A stretch of 64,000 bases of DNA, from sequence record MW882907; one strand, written 5' to 3'. Every line of letters begins with the position of its first letter. Within the stretch, counting starts at the first letter, position 1. The position numbers were made by a program, and so were the translations under genes. Origin of the DNA: Escherichia phage vB_EcoM_SQ17. The notes beneath the pieces were generated by a model. It ran no database searches, had not been told where the DNA came from, and saw only the letters and a list, made by a program, of their open reading frames with translations. Shown one piece after another: positions 58,285 to 63,895 of this stretch.

Positions 58285-58314
58285 ATAGTATCACACATCC
58301 ATGTGTTTGTAAAC
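58285..58314 (-). promoter_or_regulatory. T4-type early promoter
   Basis: minus-strand GTTTAC, 18 nt, TACTAT at the 3' end of alt. Confidence 0.5.
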
Positions 58315-60401
58315 TATCCTTGGACAAATTTAAACGGAACTGATTCTAAATCCATTAAAGATGCTAACAATTTCAATCCTTTAGGAGCACTAGTTTTTTC
58401 TACAAATGAGGAGAACGATACCGGCCCATCTGATTCGATTTCACCCGTCATAGCAACCACATCGCCTGTTTCCATGAGAACATCACCATCGTAAATGACA
58501 GCTTCGTCCAACTGGTCCGAGGACATAACTTCGGCTTGAATAAATTTAAGGTTGGATTCTAAACCTGCACCAGTGTCAGATGACGCATCTGTAATTTTAT
58601 TTATCTGCAAGAGAATGCCTCTAGGCAAAATAATTTCTTGCTCATTAGGGTGATTACTCAACTGTCCAGGATAAATCACGTTAACTTTATGAGCGCCATC
58701 AATAGCCCATCCAACGTTAACACGGATTTGTTCTGGTGCATGCATAGCTGTTCTTACTTGACTAGGAGAAATAGTAACACCTTCGTCATTATTATCAATG
58801 TTAAGCTCTTTGCGAACTTCTTCAGGAGCAAGTCCAAGGGCAACGTTCTCTTTAAACCCACCGAAAATAATAGGAGCTAGTGAAGTGGAAACATAGTTTC
58901 TGAAGTAGAATACCTTATTTTTAACCATTGCTTCGTAAATAGGCATTCTGATAGACTGAGCTCTATATAACGTTAGTCCTTCAGGTAAACGATCTCCATT
59001 TAAAAACGCCGAATCAAGACCATCAATAGCGCGTTTAACTTCATCTTCATCTGCAACATCGTAAAAATCTGGTTTATAACGACCTAACAGCATATTATTG
59101 ATATCGGTATACGCAGAAGAGGCATATTCACGAATAGCTCGTTTTTCAGCAACAGAGTATTGATTAGGGACCCGATTCATTGTTATATTAAAGGTGCCTC
59201 TAGCCGATTCTCGTGCATAAGTATACATCACATTAGACAAGAACGCTGATTTACGTTGTTTCCAAGTTTTTTCAGATACTTCAGCTAAAACGTCGTCAGC
59301 CAGTTGGAAATTATCACGTCTAAAATCTTCAAACCATTCGTCTTTAATAGAGTCTGCAATTTCATTTGCAGCTTCAACAAAAGCAGCTAATGCTTTAACA
59401 GATGTTGTTTTTTCAGTTTTAATTTTCTTAGCAAACTTTTCTAAAGTTGGCTTAATAACATCACCATAAGAAACTTCATCGGCAAATCTAAAGGATTCAT
59501 CAATACGATTATAAATCTTATTTTCGATATCAGCAACTAAAGTGCCTTTTGCTGTGGACGATGCTTGGGCTAGTACGATTTCATATGCTTCAGGAAGTAA
59601 TTCGGCTGTAGCTGGGCCACTAACTTCTTTAGCAGAATTTTCGTATTTCTGGAATAACTCACCTTCTTGTCGGTCAGCTTCTAAAGATTGACTTGCTGCA
59701 ATAGCACGACGAGAAATTTTAGTACGAGCAATAACAGGCTTATCTTTACGTTTTTCTTCTACAGCAGCAATAGAACCAGCGATAGCCGTTTCTTTGGTGA
59801 CCGTTTCGCCAGTCTTTTTACTCACATAAACTTCGCCAACATCAGAATCTACTTTCGTGTACAACTCTGTGTTAATGTTAGGGATGCCTTTAATATCTTC
59901 AATGTTAGCATTTTTACGAACCATCATCACATAGGTGTGTTTACCTGTGAATTGATACATTGCTGACAATACTTTAAAACGGCCACCGGTTTTAGTAGAA
60001 ACTAAACGAGCAAGAAGAGTTTGAAGTTGTTGTCCACGTCCTTTCAATTTCTTGGTAGGGAATCGGAACAGAACTGCATCCATACGAAGAGCTTTAACCT
60101 GTTCATATACTGTATTGAAAATGGTGTTGATTGCATCAATAGGAGCAGGACCAAGGCCATTTTTCAATTCAGCGAGATTACCCTTTTCAGACAGACTCAT
60201 AATAACAACATGAGCGTATTTGTCGCCAAGTTTAACTTGTTTTACAGCATCGCCTTCAGAAAGGTAAGAGAATAAGCGAACTACGATGTTTGTATCAACA
60301 TCACCAATTTTCCAGACTTGTGGAACTTTAGCTTTAGGGTTCAAATTGACGACAGGAAGACTGCCTTCAGATTCAAACACTTCATTCAATTGTTCAGACA
60401 T
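58314..60401 (-). CDS. alt: ADP-ribosyltransferase Alt (virion-packaged)
   Basis: 695 aa, position between gene 54 and gene 30 as T4 alt. Confidence 0.8.
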   Translation of the reverse strand: MSEQLNEVFESEGSLPVVNLNPKAKVPQVWKIGDVDTNIVVRLFSYLSEGDAVKQVKLGDKYAHVVIMSLSEKGNLAELKNGLGPAPIDAINTIFNTVYEQVKALRMDAVLFRFPTKKLKGRGQQLQTLLARLVSTKTGGRFKVLSAMYQFTGKHTYVMMVRKNANIEDIKGIPNINTELYTKVDSDVGEVYVSKKTGETVTKETAIAGSIAAVEEKRKDKPVIARTKISRRAIAASQSLEADRQEGELFQKYENSAKEVSGPATAELLPEAYEIVLAQASSTAKGTLVADIENKIYNRIDESFRFADEVSYGDVIKPTLEKFAKKIKTEKTTSVKALAAFVEAANEIADSIKDEWFEDFRRDNFQLADDVLAEVSEKTWKQRKSAFLSNVMYTYARESARGTFNITMNRVPNQYSVAEKRAIREYASSAYTDINNMLLGRYKPDFYDVADEDEVKRAIDGLDSAFLNGDRLPEGLTLYRAQSIRMPIYEAMVKNKVFYFRNYVSTSLAPIIFGGFKENVALGLAPEEVRKELNIDNNDEGVTISPSQVRTAMHAPEQIRVNVGWAIDGAHKVNVIYPGQLSNHPNEQEIILPRGILLQINKITDASSDTGAGLESNLKFIQAEVMSSDQLDEAVIYDGDVLMETGDVVAMTGEIESDGPVSFSSFVEKTSAPKGLKLLASLMDLESVPFKFVQG

Positions 60402-60456: not shown

Positions 60457-60666
60457 TTAATCCACAATCGGGAGTAAAGTACGATAAACTTCAAAATTAG
60501 GGCCTTTTTCGTACTTATCAAAATTGTCCATAAAAATATGATAGGAATCGTTATTAGGAAAATCTAATACAATTTGTGAACAAGAGGTGGAAACATCACT
60601 ACCGTCTTTATTAGTGACAACTACTGTTTCTAAATAAGCTTTCATTATAAACCTGTCTGGGACCAC
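60457..60666 (-). CDS. hypothetical protein (alt.1-like position)
   Basis: 69-aa ORF between alt and gene 30. Confidence 0.4.
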   Translation of the reverse strand: MVPDRFIMKAYLETVVVTNKDGSDVSTSCSQIVLDFPNNDSYHIFMDNFDKYEKGPNFEVYRTLLPIVD

Positions 60667-62138
60667 GATCCAAATACGTCTTCAAATGAATCCGCTTCTG
60701 TTTTATCAAAACGGAACCCTTTAATAATTGGAAGGAAAATACCTACAGTACCTTCACGGCCTTTAGAATGAACCCAACCATTACATTCACAATCAGCGAT
60801 ACGTCCAATTAATTTACCTTCACGAGCTTCGGTCATTAATCGTTCACGGTCTAAATCATGACGCTCGTCTAAAGGAATAAGAACCTTTACACCGTCAACT
60901 GTTTTATGAGTTGTATCTTTAAACCCTGAACCACAATCGGTTGTAATACGACGACAACGTGATACGAGTTCGACACCACCTAATTTGTTAGGGTCTTTAG
61001 AGTGTTCATAGTATCCTACAACTTCTAAAGCGATATCAATAACTTCTTTAAATTTAATTAGGTTCTTAGAGCGTTTGTTTTCCCAATATGAATCACGGTT
61101 TTTAAGGATAATACCTTCAAGACCTTGGTCAACATATTTTTTATAAACCACTTTAGCTTCGTCAAGATTACGAACTAACTGATTTTCAATTGGCTCAATT
61201 CGCTTAAAGCCTTCAGCCATATTTTCAAGAGCAGCAAAACGAACATCGTATTTCTGACCTTTAATTTTGCCATCAGAATAGACTTCATCTAAAGGAACAT
61301 AGTCCCAGGCTTGAAGAATCATACCTTCCGCTTCTTTAGGAGAAATAGTCCCCTGAAGAGATTTATTTGCTAAACCATTTGAAGTGCTACGGTCTGCAAC
61401 TTGTACTTCTTCGGATTCTTCATTGTCACCAAATAAGAACGACAGGTCGTTTCCTGAGCTCACAGCCTTTTTAATATCGAATGAATGATAAACTAATTCA
61501 CCATCGATTAAAACCCCATTAGGGTGTCTTTCACGAGCTTCTTTAGTCATTTCCATTAGTTCATCAGCTAATAGAGTAAGTCCATGGTATTCGTTACCGG
61601 CACGAGAAAAGAATTGAACACCATCATCGCGAACTTCGGCGAAACAACGAGCACCATCTGCTTTTAATTGGGCAAATGCAGGCCATTTAATATTTTTAGT
61701 AATCAATTTCTCATCATATGCAGATGCTAACATCTGTGGTTGCAATTGAATAAGTCCAGGCCACACCTTATTAGCAATAGACACTGAAGCACCTACTTCA
61801 AGGTCGCGCATCATTACACGACGAAGGACTTCTACATCATCGGGTTTACCATCAGCGATATAACCCATGAGCTCTTTAATTGCAGCGTTACCAGTGAGTT
61901 TACGAGTGGCTAATGTGAACTCAATAAAATCCAACATGTCATCTAATTCAAGAAGTCCATACGCTTGAGACCTTTCACCCGGCCCTGGCCATTTCTTAAT
62001 ATAATACTGGATACCACGTGCATATGTTAAACGATACACACGTTCAAGTAATTTGTTGTCCTTATTTTTCTTAAGGATTTCTTGTTTTGTTTTAGTAGAA
62101 CCGATCGCAGCTATTTGGTTTAAAATATCTAAAATCAT
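60645..62138 (-). CDS. 30: ATP-dependent DNA ligase gp30
   Basis: MILDILNQIAAIGSTKTKQEILKKNKDN... and KADGARCF adenylation motif match T4 DNA ligase. Confidence 0.95.
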   Translation of the reverse strand: MILDILNQIAAIGSTKTKQEILKKNKDNKLLERVYRLTYARGIQYYIKKWPGPGERSQAYGLLELDDMLDFIEFTLATRKLTGNAAIKELMGYIADGKPDDVEVLRRVMMRDLEVGASVSIANKVWPGLIQLQPQMLASAYDEKLITKNIKWPAFAQLKADGARCFAEVRDDGVQFFSRAGNEYHGLTLLADELMEMTKEARERHPNGVLIDGELVYHSFDIKKAVSSGNDLSFLFGDNEESEEVQVADRSTSNGLANKSLQGTISPKEAEGMILQAWDYVPLDEVYSDGKIKGQKYDVRFAALENMAEGFKRIEPIENQLVRNLDEAKVVYKKYVDQGLEGIILKNRDSYWENKRSKNLIKFKEVIDIALEVVGYYEHSKDPNKLGGVELVSRCRRITTDCGSGFKDTTHKTVDGVKVLIPLDERHDLDRERLMTEAREGKLIGRIADCECNGWVHSKGREGTVGIFLPIIKGFRFDKTEADSFEDVFGSWSQTGL

Positions 62139-62404
62139 TTGATGTCCTCGATTTTGGTTACGGTTCTATTATAAGCCACTTCATCTAGAAGCGATTTCAG
62201 CGTTTTCTGATAAGTGGTAATCCATTTACCGAGACCTTCAACATAATATTCTGAAATGTAGATGAACCCTTGTTCAACACACTCTTTAAATATTTCTGCG
62301 TCTTTTACTAAACGAAACATTGGCCAGTCTCGAAAGAACATGTTAACGTGACCGTAGTCACGCGTTGTGTTTTTGCCATCTGTAATATCATGAACTACAA
62401 ACAT
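62135..62404 (-). CDS. 30.1: gp30.1-like
   Basis: 89 aa, synteny. Confidence 0.5.
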   Translation of the reverse strand: MFVVHDITDGKNTTRDYGHVNMFFRDWPMFRLVKDAEIFKECVEQGFIYISEYYVEGLGKWITTYQKTLKSLLDEVAYNRTVTKIEDIK

Positions 62405-62413
62405 AATTAACCC

Positions 62414-63229
62414 TTAACAATTTGTAGACCAAGTCCATTTGGACGAATCTAAAGGAAAGTTTTGAATCGTCCACCACGGCTGCATATCGGTTGGTCCTGG
62501 GGTTCGCCAGGTATATGGATTCGACGGACCGCCAATTTGATTAGGCCCTGCGCCTGGACTTGTTGTACCAGATTCTTTAAGCAAATCCGCCAATCGTTTT
62601 AAAAGGTCTTCACGATCTGAATCTGAATTATGCTCGGGTGGAACCAAACGAGATTCAATATCATCCCACGTGTGTACACGTTGTGCAGTACGAGGAATGG
62701 CATCACGTTCACCACGAGCCAACCAATAAATTGGTACATTAAGAATTTCTGCCGCATGGTCACAGTGATGAGCTAAATCGTCAACGTAACAAATCACGTT
62801 ATATTTTGTTTTAGCTAGTTCGAATAATTGTTCCTTTGAAGAATCATGACCACACATCATTACTTCAGAGAAAGCGCCTGGGAACAAAGCATTCAAATTA
62901 AATTGTCTATTCAATCGAGCATCAATTGAATCACCTAGCGCCGTCACGGCTACAAAATTATAGTCTTCTTTTAGTTTATTGATAACTCGAAGAGCATCAG
63001 AATAAGGCGCTAAGTAACGAATAAAATCAGAGCGATTATATTTTTCTATTAATTGTTTACCGAGGTTATCGTCGGTATTGAATAGTTTACCAGGAGAAAT
63101 AAATTTTTCGTCCTGAATCATTTTTAAAATATGTTCTAATGGAAGATTATATTTTTGGGCAAAATAAGGAAGTCCAGATTGCCAGCTTAAACATACACCA
63201 TCAATATCAGTCAAAATAGTAGGTTTCAT
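62414..63229 (-). CDS. 30.2: HAD-superfamily hydrolase-like protein (30.2 position)
   Basis: N-terminal ILTDIDGV motif (DxDG[TV] of HAD phosphatases). Confidence 0.6.
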   Translation of the reverse strand: MKPTILTDIDGVCLSWQSGLPYFAQKYNLPLEHILKMIQDEKFISPGKLFNTDDNLGKQLIEKYNRSDFIRYLAPYSDALRVINKLKEDYNFVAVTALGDSIDARLNRQFNLNALFPGAFSEVMMCGHDSSKEQLFELAKTKYNVICYVDDLAHHCDHAAEILNVPIYWLARGERDAIPRTAQRVHTWDDIESRLVPPEHNSDSDREDLLKRLADLLKESGTTSPGAGPNQIGGPSNPYTWRTPGPTDMQPWWTIQNFPLDSSKWTWSTNC

Positions 63230-63693
63230 AAAGAGTCTCTTAATAGGTTTAACACATCAATAAATTCAGCTTCGGTTAGTATTGTATCATCTTTTGTTAG
63301 ACCGCTAGCCATGCTGTGCTTCAAAATTTTTCCTTTAGAGGCTTGTAAGGCATCACGAAACCCCTTGTTTTGGATCGCGGCTTCAAAATATGCATTTGTG
63401 TATAATTCTTTCCACGCTTCAGAGTATCTTGAAAATGGAACTCCTAACCAGAAGAGAGTCCCACGGTCCTGAGCTCTTGCATAAGACCTTCCGGCTTGCT
63501 GTGCAGCCAATCCAGACAACCTAAATATACGTTTTTGTTGTTCAACATTTTTCACCTTACATCCTTGGAGAAATCCTTCAAGTCCTCCGAATTGAATACC
63601 ATCCATAACAAAAGGCCATTGAGCAAAGTTACTTAATGCACATGACGGCCATGGAAAATTGCTTCTTATTTCTAATTCAGACATCTTTAACAC
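63226..63693 (-). CDS. 30.3: NADAR/YbiA-family protein (30.3 position)
   Basis: SNFAQWPFVMDGIQFGGLEGFLQGCK parallels E. coli YbiA FSNFAAWPIKVDGKTWPTSEHYFQAQK. Confidence 0.6.
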   Translation of the reverse strand: MLKMSELEIRSNFPWPSCALSNFAQWPFVMDGIQFGGLEGFLQGCKVKNVEQQKRIFRLSGLAAQQAGRSYARAQDRGTLFWLGVPFSRYSEAWKELYTNAYFEAAIQNKGFRDALQASKGKILKHSMASGLTKDDTILTEAEFIDVLNLLRDSL

Positions 63694-63895
63694 TTATAAT
63701 TTCAATATCAGCCCAATGGCCGTATCCAGGTATACGGTCTTCGATAGATAAATTTCCGCCATTTTTAGGTATTTTAATTGACGTAACGTATGGTTCTAAA
63801 CGGTTTTCTGAATAATATGGAAAAACGTCTGTTACACGATAAGTAACTTCGATCATTTCCGTACCAAACAATTTCCGGATTAATTTATTCAACAT
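63677..63895 (-). CDS. hypothetical small protein
   Basis: 72-aa ORF overlapping 30.3 start. Confidence 0.4.
   Translation of the reverse strand: MLNKLIRKLFGTEMIEVTYRVTDVFPYYSENRLEPYVTSIKIPKNGGNLSIEDRIPGYGHWADIEIISVKDV

What the first reader, a model, noticed from the sequence alone, without database searches (positions are those of the whole stretch)
60645..63693. DNA ligase followed by HAD-like and NADAR-family genes
Downstream of gene 30 the 30.2-position protein carries a HAD phosphatase motif (ILTDIDGV) and the 30.3-position protein matches the NADAR/YbiA family. NADAR enzymes can remove ADP-ribose from guanine in DNA, the mark left by DarT toxins, so together with ligase this could be a DNA-end and ADP-ribose repair module with an anti-DarTG role. 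This is inference from motifs only.
Basis: partly seen in the sequence, partly recalled or inferred. Interest (0 to 1): 0.5.

Follow-up and report, generated by a model that had tools for sequence, protein, structure and literature searches.

The report
T4-type ligase, HAD phosphatase, AdfN genes
This is the ordinary gene 30 to 30.3 stretch of a T4-like phage: the last gene is AdfN, an enzyme already shown to strip ADP-ribose from phage DNA and defeat the bacterial DarTG1 defence, and it works alone rather than as a repair module with its neighbours.

Summary

The 30.3 protein is 96% identical to T4 gp30.3. That protein is AdfN, a NADAR ADP-ribosylglycohydrolase shown experimentally to remove guanine-linked ADP-ribose from DNA and to be the T4 factor needed against DarTG1. 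The catalytic residues E36, K43 and H123 and the C-terminal helix are all present.

The "ligase + HAD + NADAR repair module" idea is not supported. In T4 transposon sequencing, 30.3 insertions are lost on DarTG1 (log2FC -7.25), while 30.2 (-0.12) and 30.1 (-0.01) insertions are unaffected. Base de-ADP-ribosylation also leaves no nick to seal.

The parts
60645..62138 (-). Gene 30, ATP-dependent DNA ligase (497 aa). The active-site lysine K159 in the KADG motif is at 61662-61664.
   Evidence: PF01068 E=2e-26 and PHROG 114 E=4e-155. It is 67% identical to T4 gp30 with KADG conserved.
62135..62404 (-). Gene 30.1, DUF3045 protein of unknown function (89 aa). It overlaps the ligase start by 4 nt.
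   Evidence: PF11243 E=2e-26 and PHROG 2054. The T4 orthologue is non-essential and has no DarTG1 phenotype.
62414..63229 (-). Gene 30.2, a HAD-superfamily phosphatase with a C1 helical cap (271 aa). The catalytic core is residues 1-195. Motif I is D8/D10 (63200-63208), motif II is T96 (62942-62944), motif III is K132 (62834-62836) and motif IV is D150-D151 (62777-62782). The tail, residues ~222-271, is disordered and rich in Trp and Pro.
63226..63684 (-). [quoted passage not shown] Catalytic residues are E36 (63577-63579), K43 (63556-63558) and H123 (63316-63318). It is full length with the C-terminal helix intact.
   Evidence: PF08010 E=1e-68. It is 96% identical to T4 gp30.3. E36, K43 and H123 are invariant in 40 homologues. 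The AF2 model has pLDDT 94.3, and its top three PDB matches are the three NADAR structures 2b3w, 8bau and 8bat. The function was shown for T4.
63677..63895 (-). Gene 30.4 (72 aa, unknown function), immediately upstream. Its stop overlaps the adfN start codon by 8 nt.
   Evidence: PHROG 2042 E=1e-32. The junction sequence is shown. T4 30.4 insertions are mildly depleted on DarTG1 (log2FC -1.79, q=0.014), which fits a polar effect on adfN.
60457..60645 (-). alt.1 homologue (62 aa), downstream of ligase. It shares 1 nt with the ligase stop codon.
   Evidence: ORF and junction. Position and length match T4 alt.1.

Best explanation
This is the conserved early-gene block 30.4-30.3-30.2-30.1-30-alt.1 of a T4-like phage. 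The genes are tightly packed with overlapping stops and starts, so they are probably co-transcribed. They are three independent functions, not one module.

(1) gp30.3 is AdfN. DarT1 of the host DarTG1 system attaches ADP-ribose to guanine in phage DNA and blocks replication. AdfN, using E36, K43 and H123 in a NADAR fold, hydrolyses the N-glycosidic link, releases ADP-ribose and restores intact guanine, so replication proceeds. This was shown for the T4 orthologue and is inferred here from 96% identity and intact catalytic residues.

(2) gp30 is the replicative ATP-dependent DNA ligase that seals Okazaki-fragment nicks. This is established for T4 and is essential there.

(3) gp30.2 is a Mg2+-dependent HAD phosphomonoesterase. 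Its DxD nucleophile and acid pair, and a closed helical cap, point to a small-molecule substrate. The most likely substrate is a (deoxy)nucleoside monophosphate, as in 5'(3')-deoxyribonucleotidases. This is inferred from fold, motifs and nearest relatives. The substrate and biological role are untested, and the gene is dispensable in the laboratory.
For: - Identity of the block: 97.6% nucleotide identity to Tequatrovirus genomes, and the same gene order as T4.
- AdfN sequence: 96% identity to T4 gp30.3, full length, with E36, K43 and H123 invariant.
- AdfN fold: NADAR, confirmed independently (profile to YbiA E=0.0012).
- AdfN function in T4: deletion sensitises T4 and T2 by about 4 logs. Ectopic AdfN rescues RB69. 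E36A and K43A abolish rescue. Purified protein removes ADP-ribose from DNA. His in the last strand is the gp30.3-subfamily signature.
- Independence of the neighbours: T4 TnSeq on DarTG1 gives 30.3 -7.25 (q=0), 30.2 -0.12 and 30.1 -0.01. On DarTG2 all are about 0.
- 30.2 as nucleotidase-like: 20 of 59 remote relatives hit Pfam NT5C. The extended profile hits the putative deoxyribonucleotidase 3bwv at E=3e-5 over its full length, then the SDT1/SSM1 nucleotidases. The invariant W16 aligns with the Phe eight residues after the motif-I nucleophile of mouse cdN. From my own recollection of the cdN/mdN structures, not checked here, that Phe stacks on the nucleotide base.
Against: - Nothing here was tested on this phage itself. 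AdfN activity is inferred from the orthologue, which differs by six substitutions.
- For 30.2, the direct sequence matches to HAD and NT5C are not significant (E=0.019 and 0.3-0.5).
- T4 30.2 mutants show no phenotype in LB, M9, DarTG1 or DarTG2, so its role is unknown.
- The ligase is essential, so a contribution to DarTG resistance cannot be excluded genetically.
Confidence: 0.85

Rival explanations
1. The first reader's module: AdfN removes ADP-ribose, gp30.2 cleans up a phosphorylated DNA end or repair intermediate, and ligase seals the strand. The three together would form an anti-DarTG repair pathway.
Against: T4 30.2 and 30.1 transposon mutants are not depleted on DarTG1 or DarTG2. Purified AdfN alone de-ADP-ribosylates DNA. 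Hydrolysing a base-linked ADP-ribose creates no nick or end. 30.2 carries a C1 cap, which in HAD enzymes goes with small-molecule substrates, whereas Pnkp-type DNA phosphatases are capless (established HAD classification; model). 30.3 is absent from the 30.2-ligase spot in two lineages. NADARs of this family in other phages lack HAD or ligase neighbours.
Confidence: 0.04
2. gp30.2 works with DNA ligase or the replication and nucleotide-synthesis machinery, independently of AdfN. It might remove a nucleotide by-product or an unwanted dNMP near the fork, recruited through its disordered aromatic C-terminal tail.
For: A 30.2-type HAD lies directly upstream of DNA ligase, or within two small ORFs of it, in five divergent Straboviridae lineages. 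This holds even where 30.3 is absent from that spot. It has nucleotidase-like relatives. A recurring aromatic-x-N-x-P motif appears in 23 of 70 tails.
Against: Straboviridae keep long-range synteny in general, so adjacency may simply be inherited. About half of the homologues lack the tail entirely. T4 30.2 is fully dispensable, with 72 of 72 TA sites hit and no M9 phenotype. No fusion to an informative domain was found.
Confidence: 0.15
3. gp30.2 is a counter-defence enzyme against an untested host system. It might dephosphorylate a nucleotide-derived immune signal, or offset a nucleotide-pool-targeting defence, like its anti-defence neighbours Alt and AdfN.
For: It sits in an early-gene region rich in host-takeover and anti-defence genes (alt, adfN). 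It is non-essential in the laboratory but is found in 1439 sequenced phage records, a pattern typical of conditionally useful genes.
Against: There is no phenotype against DarTG1 or DarTG2 in the tables read here. HAD enzymes cleave phosphomonoesters, whereas most known immune signals are cyclic phosphodiesters. No PADLOC or anti-defence annotation was sought or found.
Confidence: 0.1

Closest known systems
T4 AdfN (gp30.3), anti-DarT factor NADAR (Johannesman et al., Nat Commun 2025, PMC11825919)
   Same: Orthologue: 146 of 152 residues are identical. It has the same length and the same genomic position between 30.4 and 30.2. E36, K43 and H123 and the C-terminal helix are present.
   Different: Six substitutions (T4 to window: R11P, R51K, G55R, P89E, V120I, I125M), none at catalytic positions. 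Activity was not measured for this allele.
DarG1-type and YbiA-type NADAR enzymes (Geobacter lovleyi NADAR 8bat, Phytophthora NADAR 8bau, E. coli YbiA 2b3w)
   Same: Same fold: these are the top three PDB matches, and the YbiA match has TM 0.61-0.66. They share the N-terminal SNF...EGF/EHYFQ...K catalytic motif.
   Different: The last-strand catalytic residue is His here, rather than Asp (the DarT1-linked BC4488 type) or Glu (the YbiA type). The gene is an orphan with no DarT partner. T4 AdfN does not neutralise DarT1 in uninfected cells.
5'(3')-deoxyribonucleotidases / NT5C family (Pfam PF06941; human and mouse cdN and mdN; S. epidermidis 3bwv)
   Same: HAD core with a small helical C1 cap. 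Motif I has the DxDGV form, followed eight residues later by an aromatic residue (W16 here, Phe in cdN). The size of the catalytic domain is similar. These are the nearest solved relatives of the extended 30.2 family.
   Different: The window protein itself does not reach the NT5C threshold in Pfam. Identity is only 15-18%. It has an extra helix and a disordered tail of about 50 residues. No substrate data exist.
T4 polynucleotide kinase/3'-phosphatase (PseT) HAD domain
   Different: Pnkp's phosphatase domain is capless and acts on nucleic-acid 3' ends. Only the core of about 125-129 residues superposes. 30.2 has a cap of about 60 residues over the active site.
T4 DNA ligase (gp30)
   Same: Orthologue: 67% identity, the KADG adenylation motif, and the same position.
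   Different: Ten residues longer, from several short insertions and deletions, the largest an insertion in the C-terminal OB-domain region.

Membership tests
gp30.3 / AdfN subfamily of NADAR | Significant match to Pfam PF08010 (Phage_30_3) | tested here: met
   E=1.2e-68, 229.7 bits against a cut-off of 36.
gp30.3 / AdfN subfamily of NADAR | Catalytic Glu and Lys (T4 E36 and K43), required for DarTG1 counter-defence | tested here: met
   E36 and K43 are present and invariant in 40 homologues. The requirement was shown in T4.
gp30.3 / AdfN subfamily of NADAR | Histidine in the last beta-strand, in place of the YbiA Glu or the BC4488 Asp | tested here: met
   H123 in ILKHSMA is invariant. The signature is described in PMC11125620 and PMC11543638.
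gp30.3 / AdfN subfamily of NADAR | Intact C-terminal helix (lost in the inactive RB69 allele) | tested here: met
   Full-length 152 aa, identical to T4 over the last 27 residues. Helix 138-151 is present in the model.
gp30.3 / AdfN subfamily of NADAR | NADAR fold | tested here: met
   AF2 pLDDT is 94.3. The top three PDB hits are 2b3w (E=7e-5), 8bau and 8bat.
gp30.3 / AdfN subfamily of NADAR | Guanine-ADP-ribose glycohydrolase activity and protection from DarTG1 | not testable with these tools
   Shown only for the T4 orthologue.
HAD superfamily phosphatase | Motif I DxDx(T/V), with nucleophile Asp and acid/base Asp at +2 | tested here: met
   D8-I-D10-G-V. D8, D10 and G11 are invariant.
HAD superfamily phosphatase | Motif II Ser/Thr, motif III Lys, motif IV acidic pair | tested here: met
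   T96 (Ser in two homologues), K132 invariant, D150-D151 invariant.
HAD superfamily phosphatase | Rossmannoid HAD core fold | tested here: met
HAD superfamily phosphatase | Significant direct sequence match to a curated HAD model | tested here: not met
   HAD_2 gives E=0.019, 15.5 bits against a cut-off of 23.8. There is no Pfam family at the default threshold. The family has no Pfam model of its own.
NT5C 5'(3')-deoxyribonucleotidase family (PF06941) | Match to the NT5C profile | tested here: inconclusive
   The window protein gives no hit. Of 59 remote relatives found with the 30.2 profile, 20 hit NT5C, best E=1e-8. The extended profile hits 3bwv at E=3e-5.
NT5C 5'(3')-deoxyribonucleotidase family (PF06941) | dNMP phosphatase activity | not testable with these tools
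   No biochemical data for any 30.2 homologue turned up in the literature searches.
ATP-dependent DNA ligase | Adenylation domain with the KxDG lysine | tested here: met
   PF01068 E=2e-26, with K159 in KADG.
   In published T4 TnSeq tables read here, 30.2 gives log2FC -0.12 and 30.1 gives -0.01 on DarTG1, and both are about 0.0 on DarTG2. The ligase is untestable because it is essential.
   PF08010 NADARs in non-T4-like phage contigs have no HAD or ligase neighbours. 30.3 is missing next to 30.2-ligase in L002 and ValKK3.

The most novel reading that the evidence does not exclude
gp30.2 could be more than a housekeeping leftover. It is a phage-specific, NT5C-like capped HAD phosphatase. It is kept immediately upstream of DNA ligase in every Straboviridae lineage examined, and it often carries a disordered Trp/Pro-rich tail with a recurring aromatic-x-N-x-P motif. 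It may be a tethered nucleotide phosphatase acting at the replication or dNTP-synthesis complex, or a counter-defence enzyme against a nucleotide-based host system not yet screened. Its function has not been described.
Probability: 0.2. Interest if true: 0.45.

Novelty: already known. Interest (0 to 1): 0.15.

Why it matters
The central idea, that a phage NADAR enzyme reverses DarT-made ADP-ribose marks on DNA, is correct and biologically important. It was published for this exact gene family in 2024-2025, so this window adds only another intact allele.

What remains open is modest. gp30.2 is a widespread HAD phosphatase, found in more than 1400 sequenced phage records, that is conserved and yet dispensable in the laboratory. 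It has no known substrate or role. Knowing that it is nucleotidase-like and not part of DarTG counter-defence narrows the experiments worth doing.

Tried and rejected
- Direct Pfam, NCBIfam and PDB sequence searches with 30.2 gave only sub-threshold HAD and NT5C hits. A profile of close homologues did no better against the PDB (E=0.3).
- A second word-indexed profile search returned only the same tight phage family. The exhaustive representative search was needed to reach remote relatives.
- Domain fusions in longer 30.2 relatives gave nothing informative.
- The 254-aa gene next to a jumbo-phage NADAR was tested as a possible HAD and is unrelated (hhalign probability 0.05).
- Promoter and terminator scans within the block found no more sites than shuffled sequence does.
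- Literature searches for gp30.2 or a T4-like phage deoxyribonucleotidase found nothing on its function.
- The DNA 3'-phosphatase (Pnkp-like) reading of 30.2 was considered and set aside because of the cap domain and the TnSeq result.
Full report
**What is there.** The window is a Tequatrovirus (T4-like) genome segment. The 3.6 kb around the finding is 97.6% identical to Shigella phage SSE1, and 148 phage records cover at least 80% of it. On the minus strand the ORFs are:
- alt: 58314-60401
- alt.1: 60457-60645
- gene 30 ligase: 60645-62138
- 30.1: 62135-62404
- 30.2: 62414-63229
- 30.3: 63226-63684
- 30.4: 63677-63895

This matches the T4 order alt, alt.1, 30, 30.1, 30.2, 30.3, 30.4. Stops and starts overlap or nearly touch: 8 nt at 30.4/30.3, 4 nt at 30.3/30.2, a 9-nt gap at 30.2/30.1, 4 nt at 30.1/30, and 1 nt at 30/alt.1. 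Promoter-like and terminator-like sites inside the block are no more frequent than in shuffled sequence. The genes are therefore probably co-transcribed.

The start that matches T4 is the ATG at 63684, giving 152 aa.

**Gene 30.3.**
- Pfam gives PF08010 Phage_30_3 at E=1e-68.
- The protein differs from T4 gp30.3 at 6 of 152 positions.
- A single-sequence search against the PDB finds only YbiA at E=0.25. A profile of 40 diverse homologues raises this to E=0.0012 over the catalytic N-terminal half.
- An AlphaFold model (pLDDT 94.3) has as its only meaningful PDB matches the three solved NADAR structures: YbiA 2b3w, Phytophthora NADAR 8bau and Geobacter NADAR 8bat.

The literature settles the function.
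- Johannesman et al. (bioRxiv 2024, PMC11257639; Nat Commun 2025, PMC11825919) mapped DarTG1 resistance of T-even phages to 30.3 and renamed it adfN.
- Deleting adfN sensitises T2 and T4 by about four logs. Ectopic AdfN rescues RB69. E36A and K43A abolish rescue. Purified AdfN removes ADP-ribose from DarT1-modified DNA.
- RB69 is sensitive because a frameshift removes the last 15 residues of its AdfN.
- A second group showed guanine-specific de-ADP-ribosylation by the T4 protein in vitro. They noted that gp30.3-type NADARs carry His where YbiA has Glu and DarT1-linked NADARs have Asp (PMC11125620; PMC11543638).
- In the window protein E36, K43 and H123 are present, and the C-terminus is identical to T4's.

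It also applies to DarTG1 (guanine) only. [quoted passage not shown]

**Gene 30.2.** The quoted ILTDIDGV is residues 5-12. On its own this is weak evidence. Direct hits are sub-threshold: HAD_2 E=0.019 and mouse deoxyribonucleotidase 2jao E=0.5. Homologues exist throughout Straboviridae (98 clusters; 1439 phage records) and have no Pfam model.

In alignments of 33-34 homologues, all four HAD catalytic motifs are conserved:
- motif I: D8, D10 and G11, invariant
- motif II: T96, replaced by Ser in two homologues
- motif III: K132, invariant
- motif IV: D150-D151, invariant

The AlphaFold model (pLDDT 85.6; most of the core, residues 1-195, above 90) shows a Rossmannoid core. A helical insert of about 60 residues follows motif I directly, which makes it a C1 cap. 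After that come a helix at 203-221 and a disordered tail.

I therefore read gp30.2 as a capped, small-molecule phosphatase that is most likely nucleotidase-like. Its substrate is unknown. No paper on its function was found.

**The module hypothesis.** Four lines of evidence argue against it.

1. *Genetics.* I read the T4 HIDEN-SEQ transposon tables (bioRxiv 10.1101/2025.11.20.689424, Extended Data Table 6) directly.
   - On DarTG1, 30.3 has log2FC -7.25 (q=0) and 30.4 has -1.79 (q=0.014).
   - On DarTG1, 30.2 has -0.12 (q=1) and 30.1 has -0.01.
   - On DarTG2, all of 30.1 to 30.4 are within ±0.03.
   - 30.2 is hit at 72 of 72 TA sites and shows no LB versus M9 effect.
   - Gene 30 is essential, so it cannot be assessed this way.
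2. *Biochemistry.* AdfN alone removes the mark in vitro.
3. *Chemistry.* Hydrolysing the base-ADP-ribose bond restores guanine and leaves the backbone intact. Neither end-processing nor ligation is called for.
4. *Comparative context.* PF08010-type NADARs in unrelated large phage contigs have neither HAD nor ligase neighbours. In two Straboviridae lineages the 30.2-ligase pair occurs without 30.3 beside it.

One caveat: the published "sufficiency" of AdfN was shown in RB69, which keeps its own 30.2 and ligase. The necessity data from TnSeq carry the argument.

**What remains interesting.** The 30.2-type HAD is directly upstream of DNA ligase, or within two small ORFs of it, in Tequatrovirus, Acinetobacter T4-likes, Slopekvirus, Schizotequatrovirus and an unclassified 179-kb contig. 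This may simply be inherited synteny. Its C-terminal tail is hypervariable and often absent, but 23 of 70 tails contain an aromatic-x-N-x-P motif. These are leads, not findings.

**Verdict.** The headline function is already known, so interest is low.

Noticed in passing
window 63321-63548 (minus strand), inside gene 30.3: T4 annotates an out-of-frame internal ORF here, 30.3' (75 aa). In the window the same frame has a stop at codon 35, so the ORF is not conserved and is probably not a real gene.
   Followed up: yes
window 63677-63895 (gene 30.4) and its 8-nt overlap with the adfN start at 63677-63684: In the T4 TnSeq data, insertions in 30.4 are also depleted on DarTG1 (log2FC -1.79, q=0.014). 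The overlapping stop and start (ATGTCTGA) suggests a polar or translational-coupling effect on adfN, rather than a second anti-DarT gene. This has not been resolved.
   Followed up: partly
window 62414-62566 (30.2 residues ~222-271): The C-terminal tail of gp30.2 is predicted to be disordered and is rich in Trp and Pro. It is very different from T4's tail and is missing in about half of the homologues. Even so, 23 of 70 tails share an aromatic-x-N-x-P[T/R/K] motif (GIEYLNRQPT, WWNNYPR); the window has PWWTIQNFPL. This could be a docking motif.
   Followed up: partly
L002 6001-8084; L003 5517-8181; L010 4001-7045; L011 3983-6408: A 30.2-type HAD gene lies directly upstream of DNA ligase, or within two small ORFs of it, across divergent Straboviridae genera, even where 30.3 is not adjacent. 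This may be a functional link or simply conserved synteny.
   Followed up: partly
homologues P0102-P0117, P0122, P0158, P0203: Many natural 30.3 (adfN) genes are truncated, or are called as fragments fused to unrelated Pfam pieces (126, 109, 91 and 89 aa). Like RB69's frameshift, this suggests that adfN is frequently lost or interrupted in T4-like phages.
   Followed up: no
window 60645-62138 (ligase): The ligase is only 67% identical to T4's, against 96% for the adjacent adfN and about 88% for the 30.2 core. It also carries several short insertions and deletions relative to T4, mostly in the C-terminal third. The block therefore has a mosaic history.
   Followed up: no
L005 8115-10294 and L008 2819-3316: The large phage contigs that carry PF08010 NADARs outside T4-like phages also encode Nudix, Thg1-like and GGDEF proteins within a few kb of the NADAR gene. 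Their relation to the NADAR gene is unknown.
   Followed up: no
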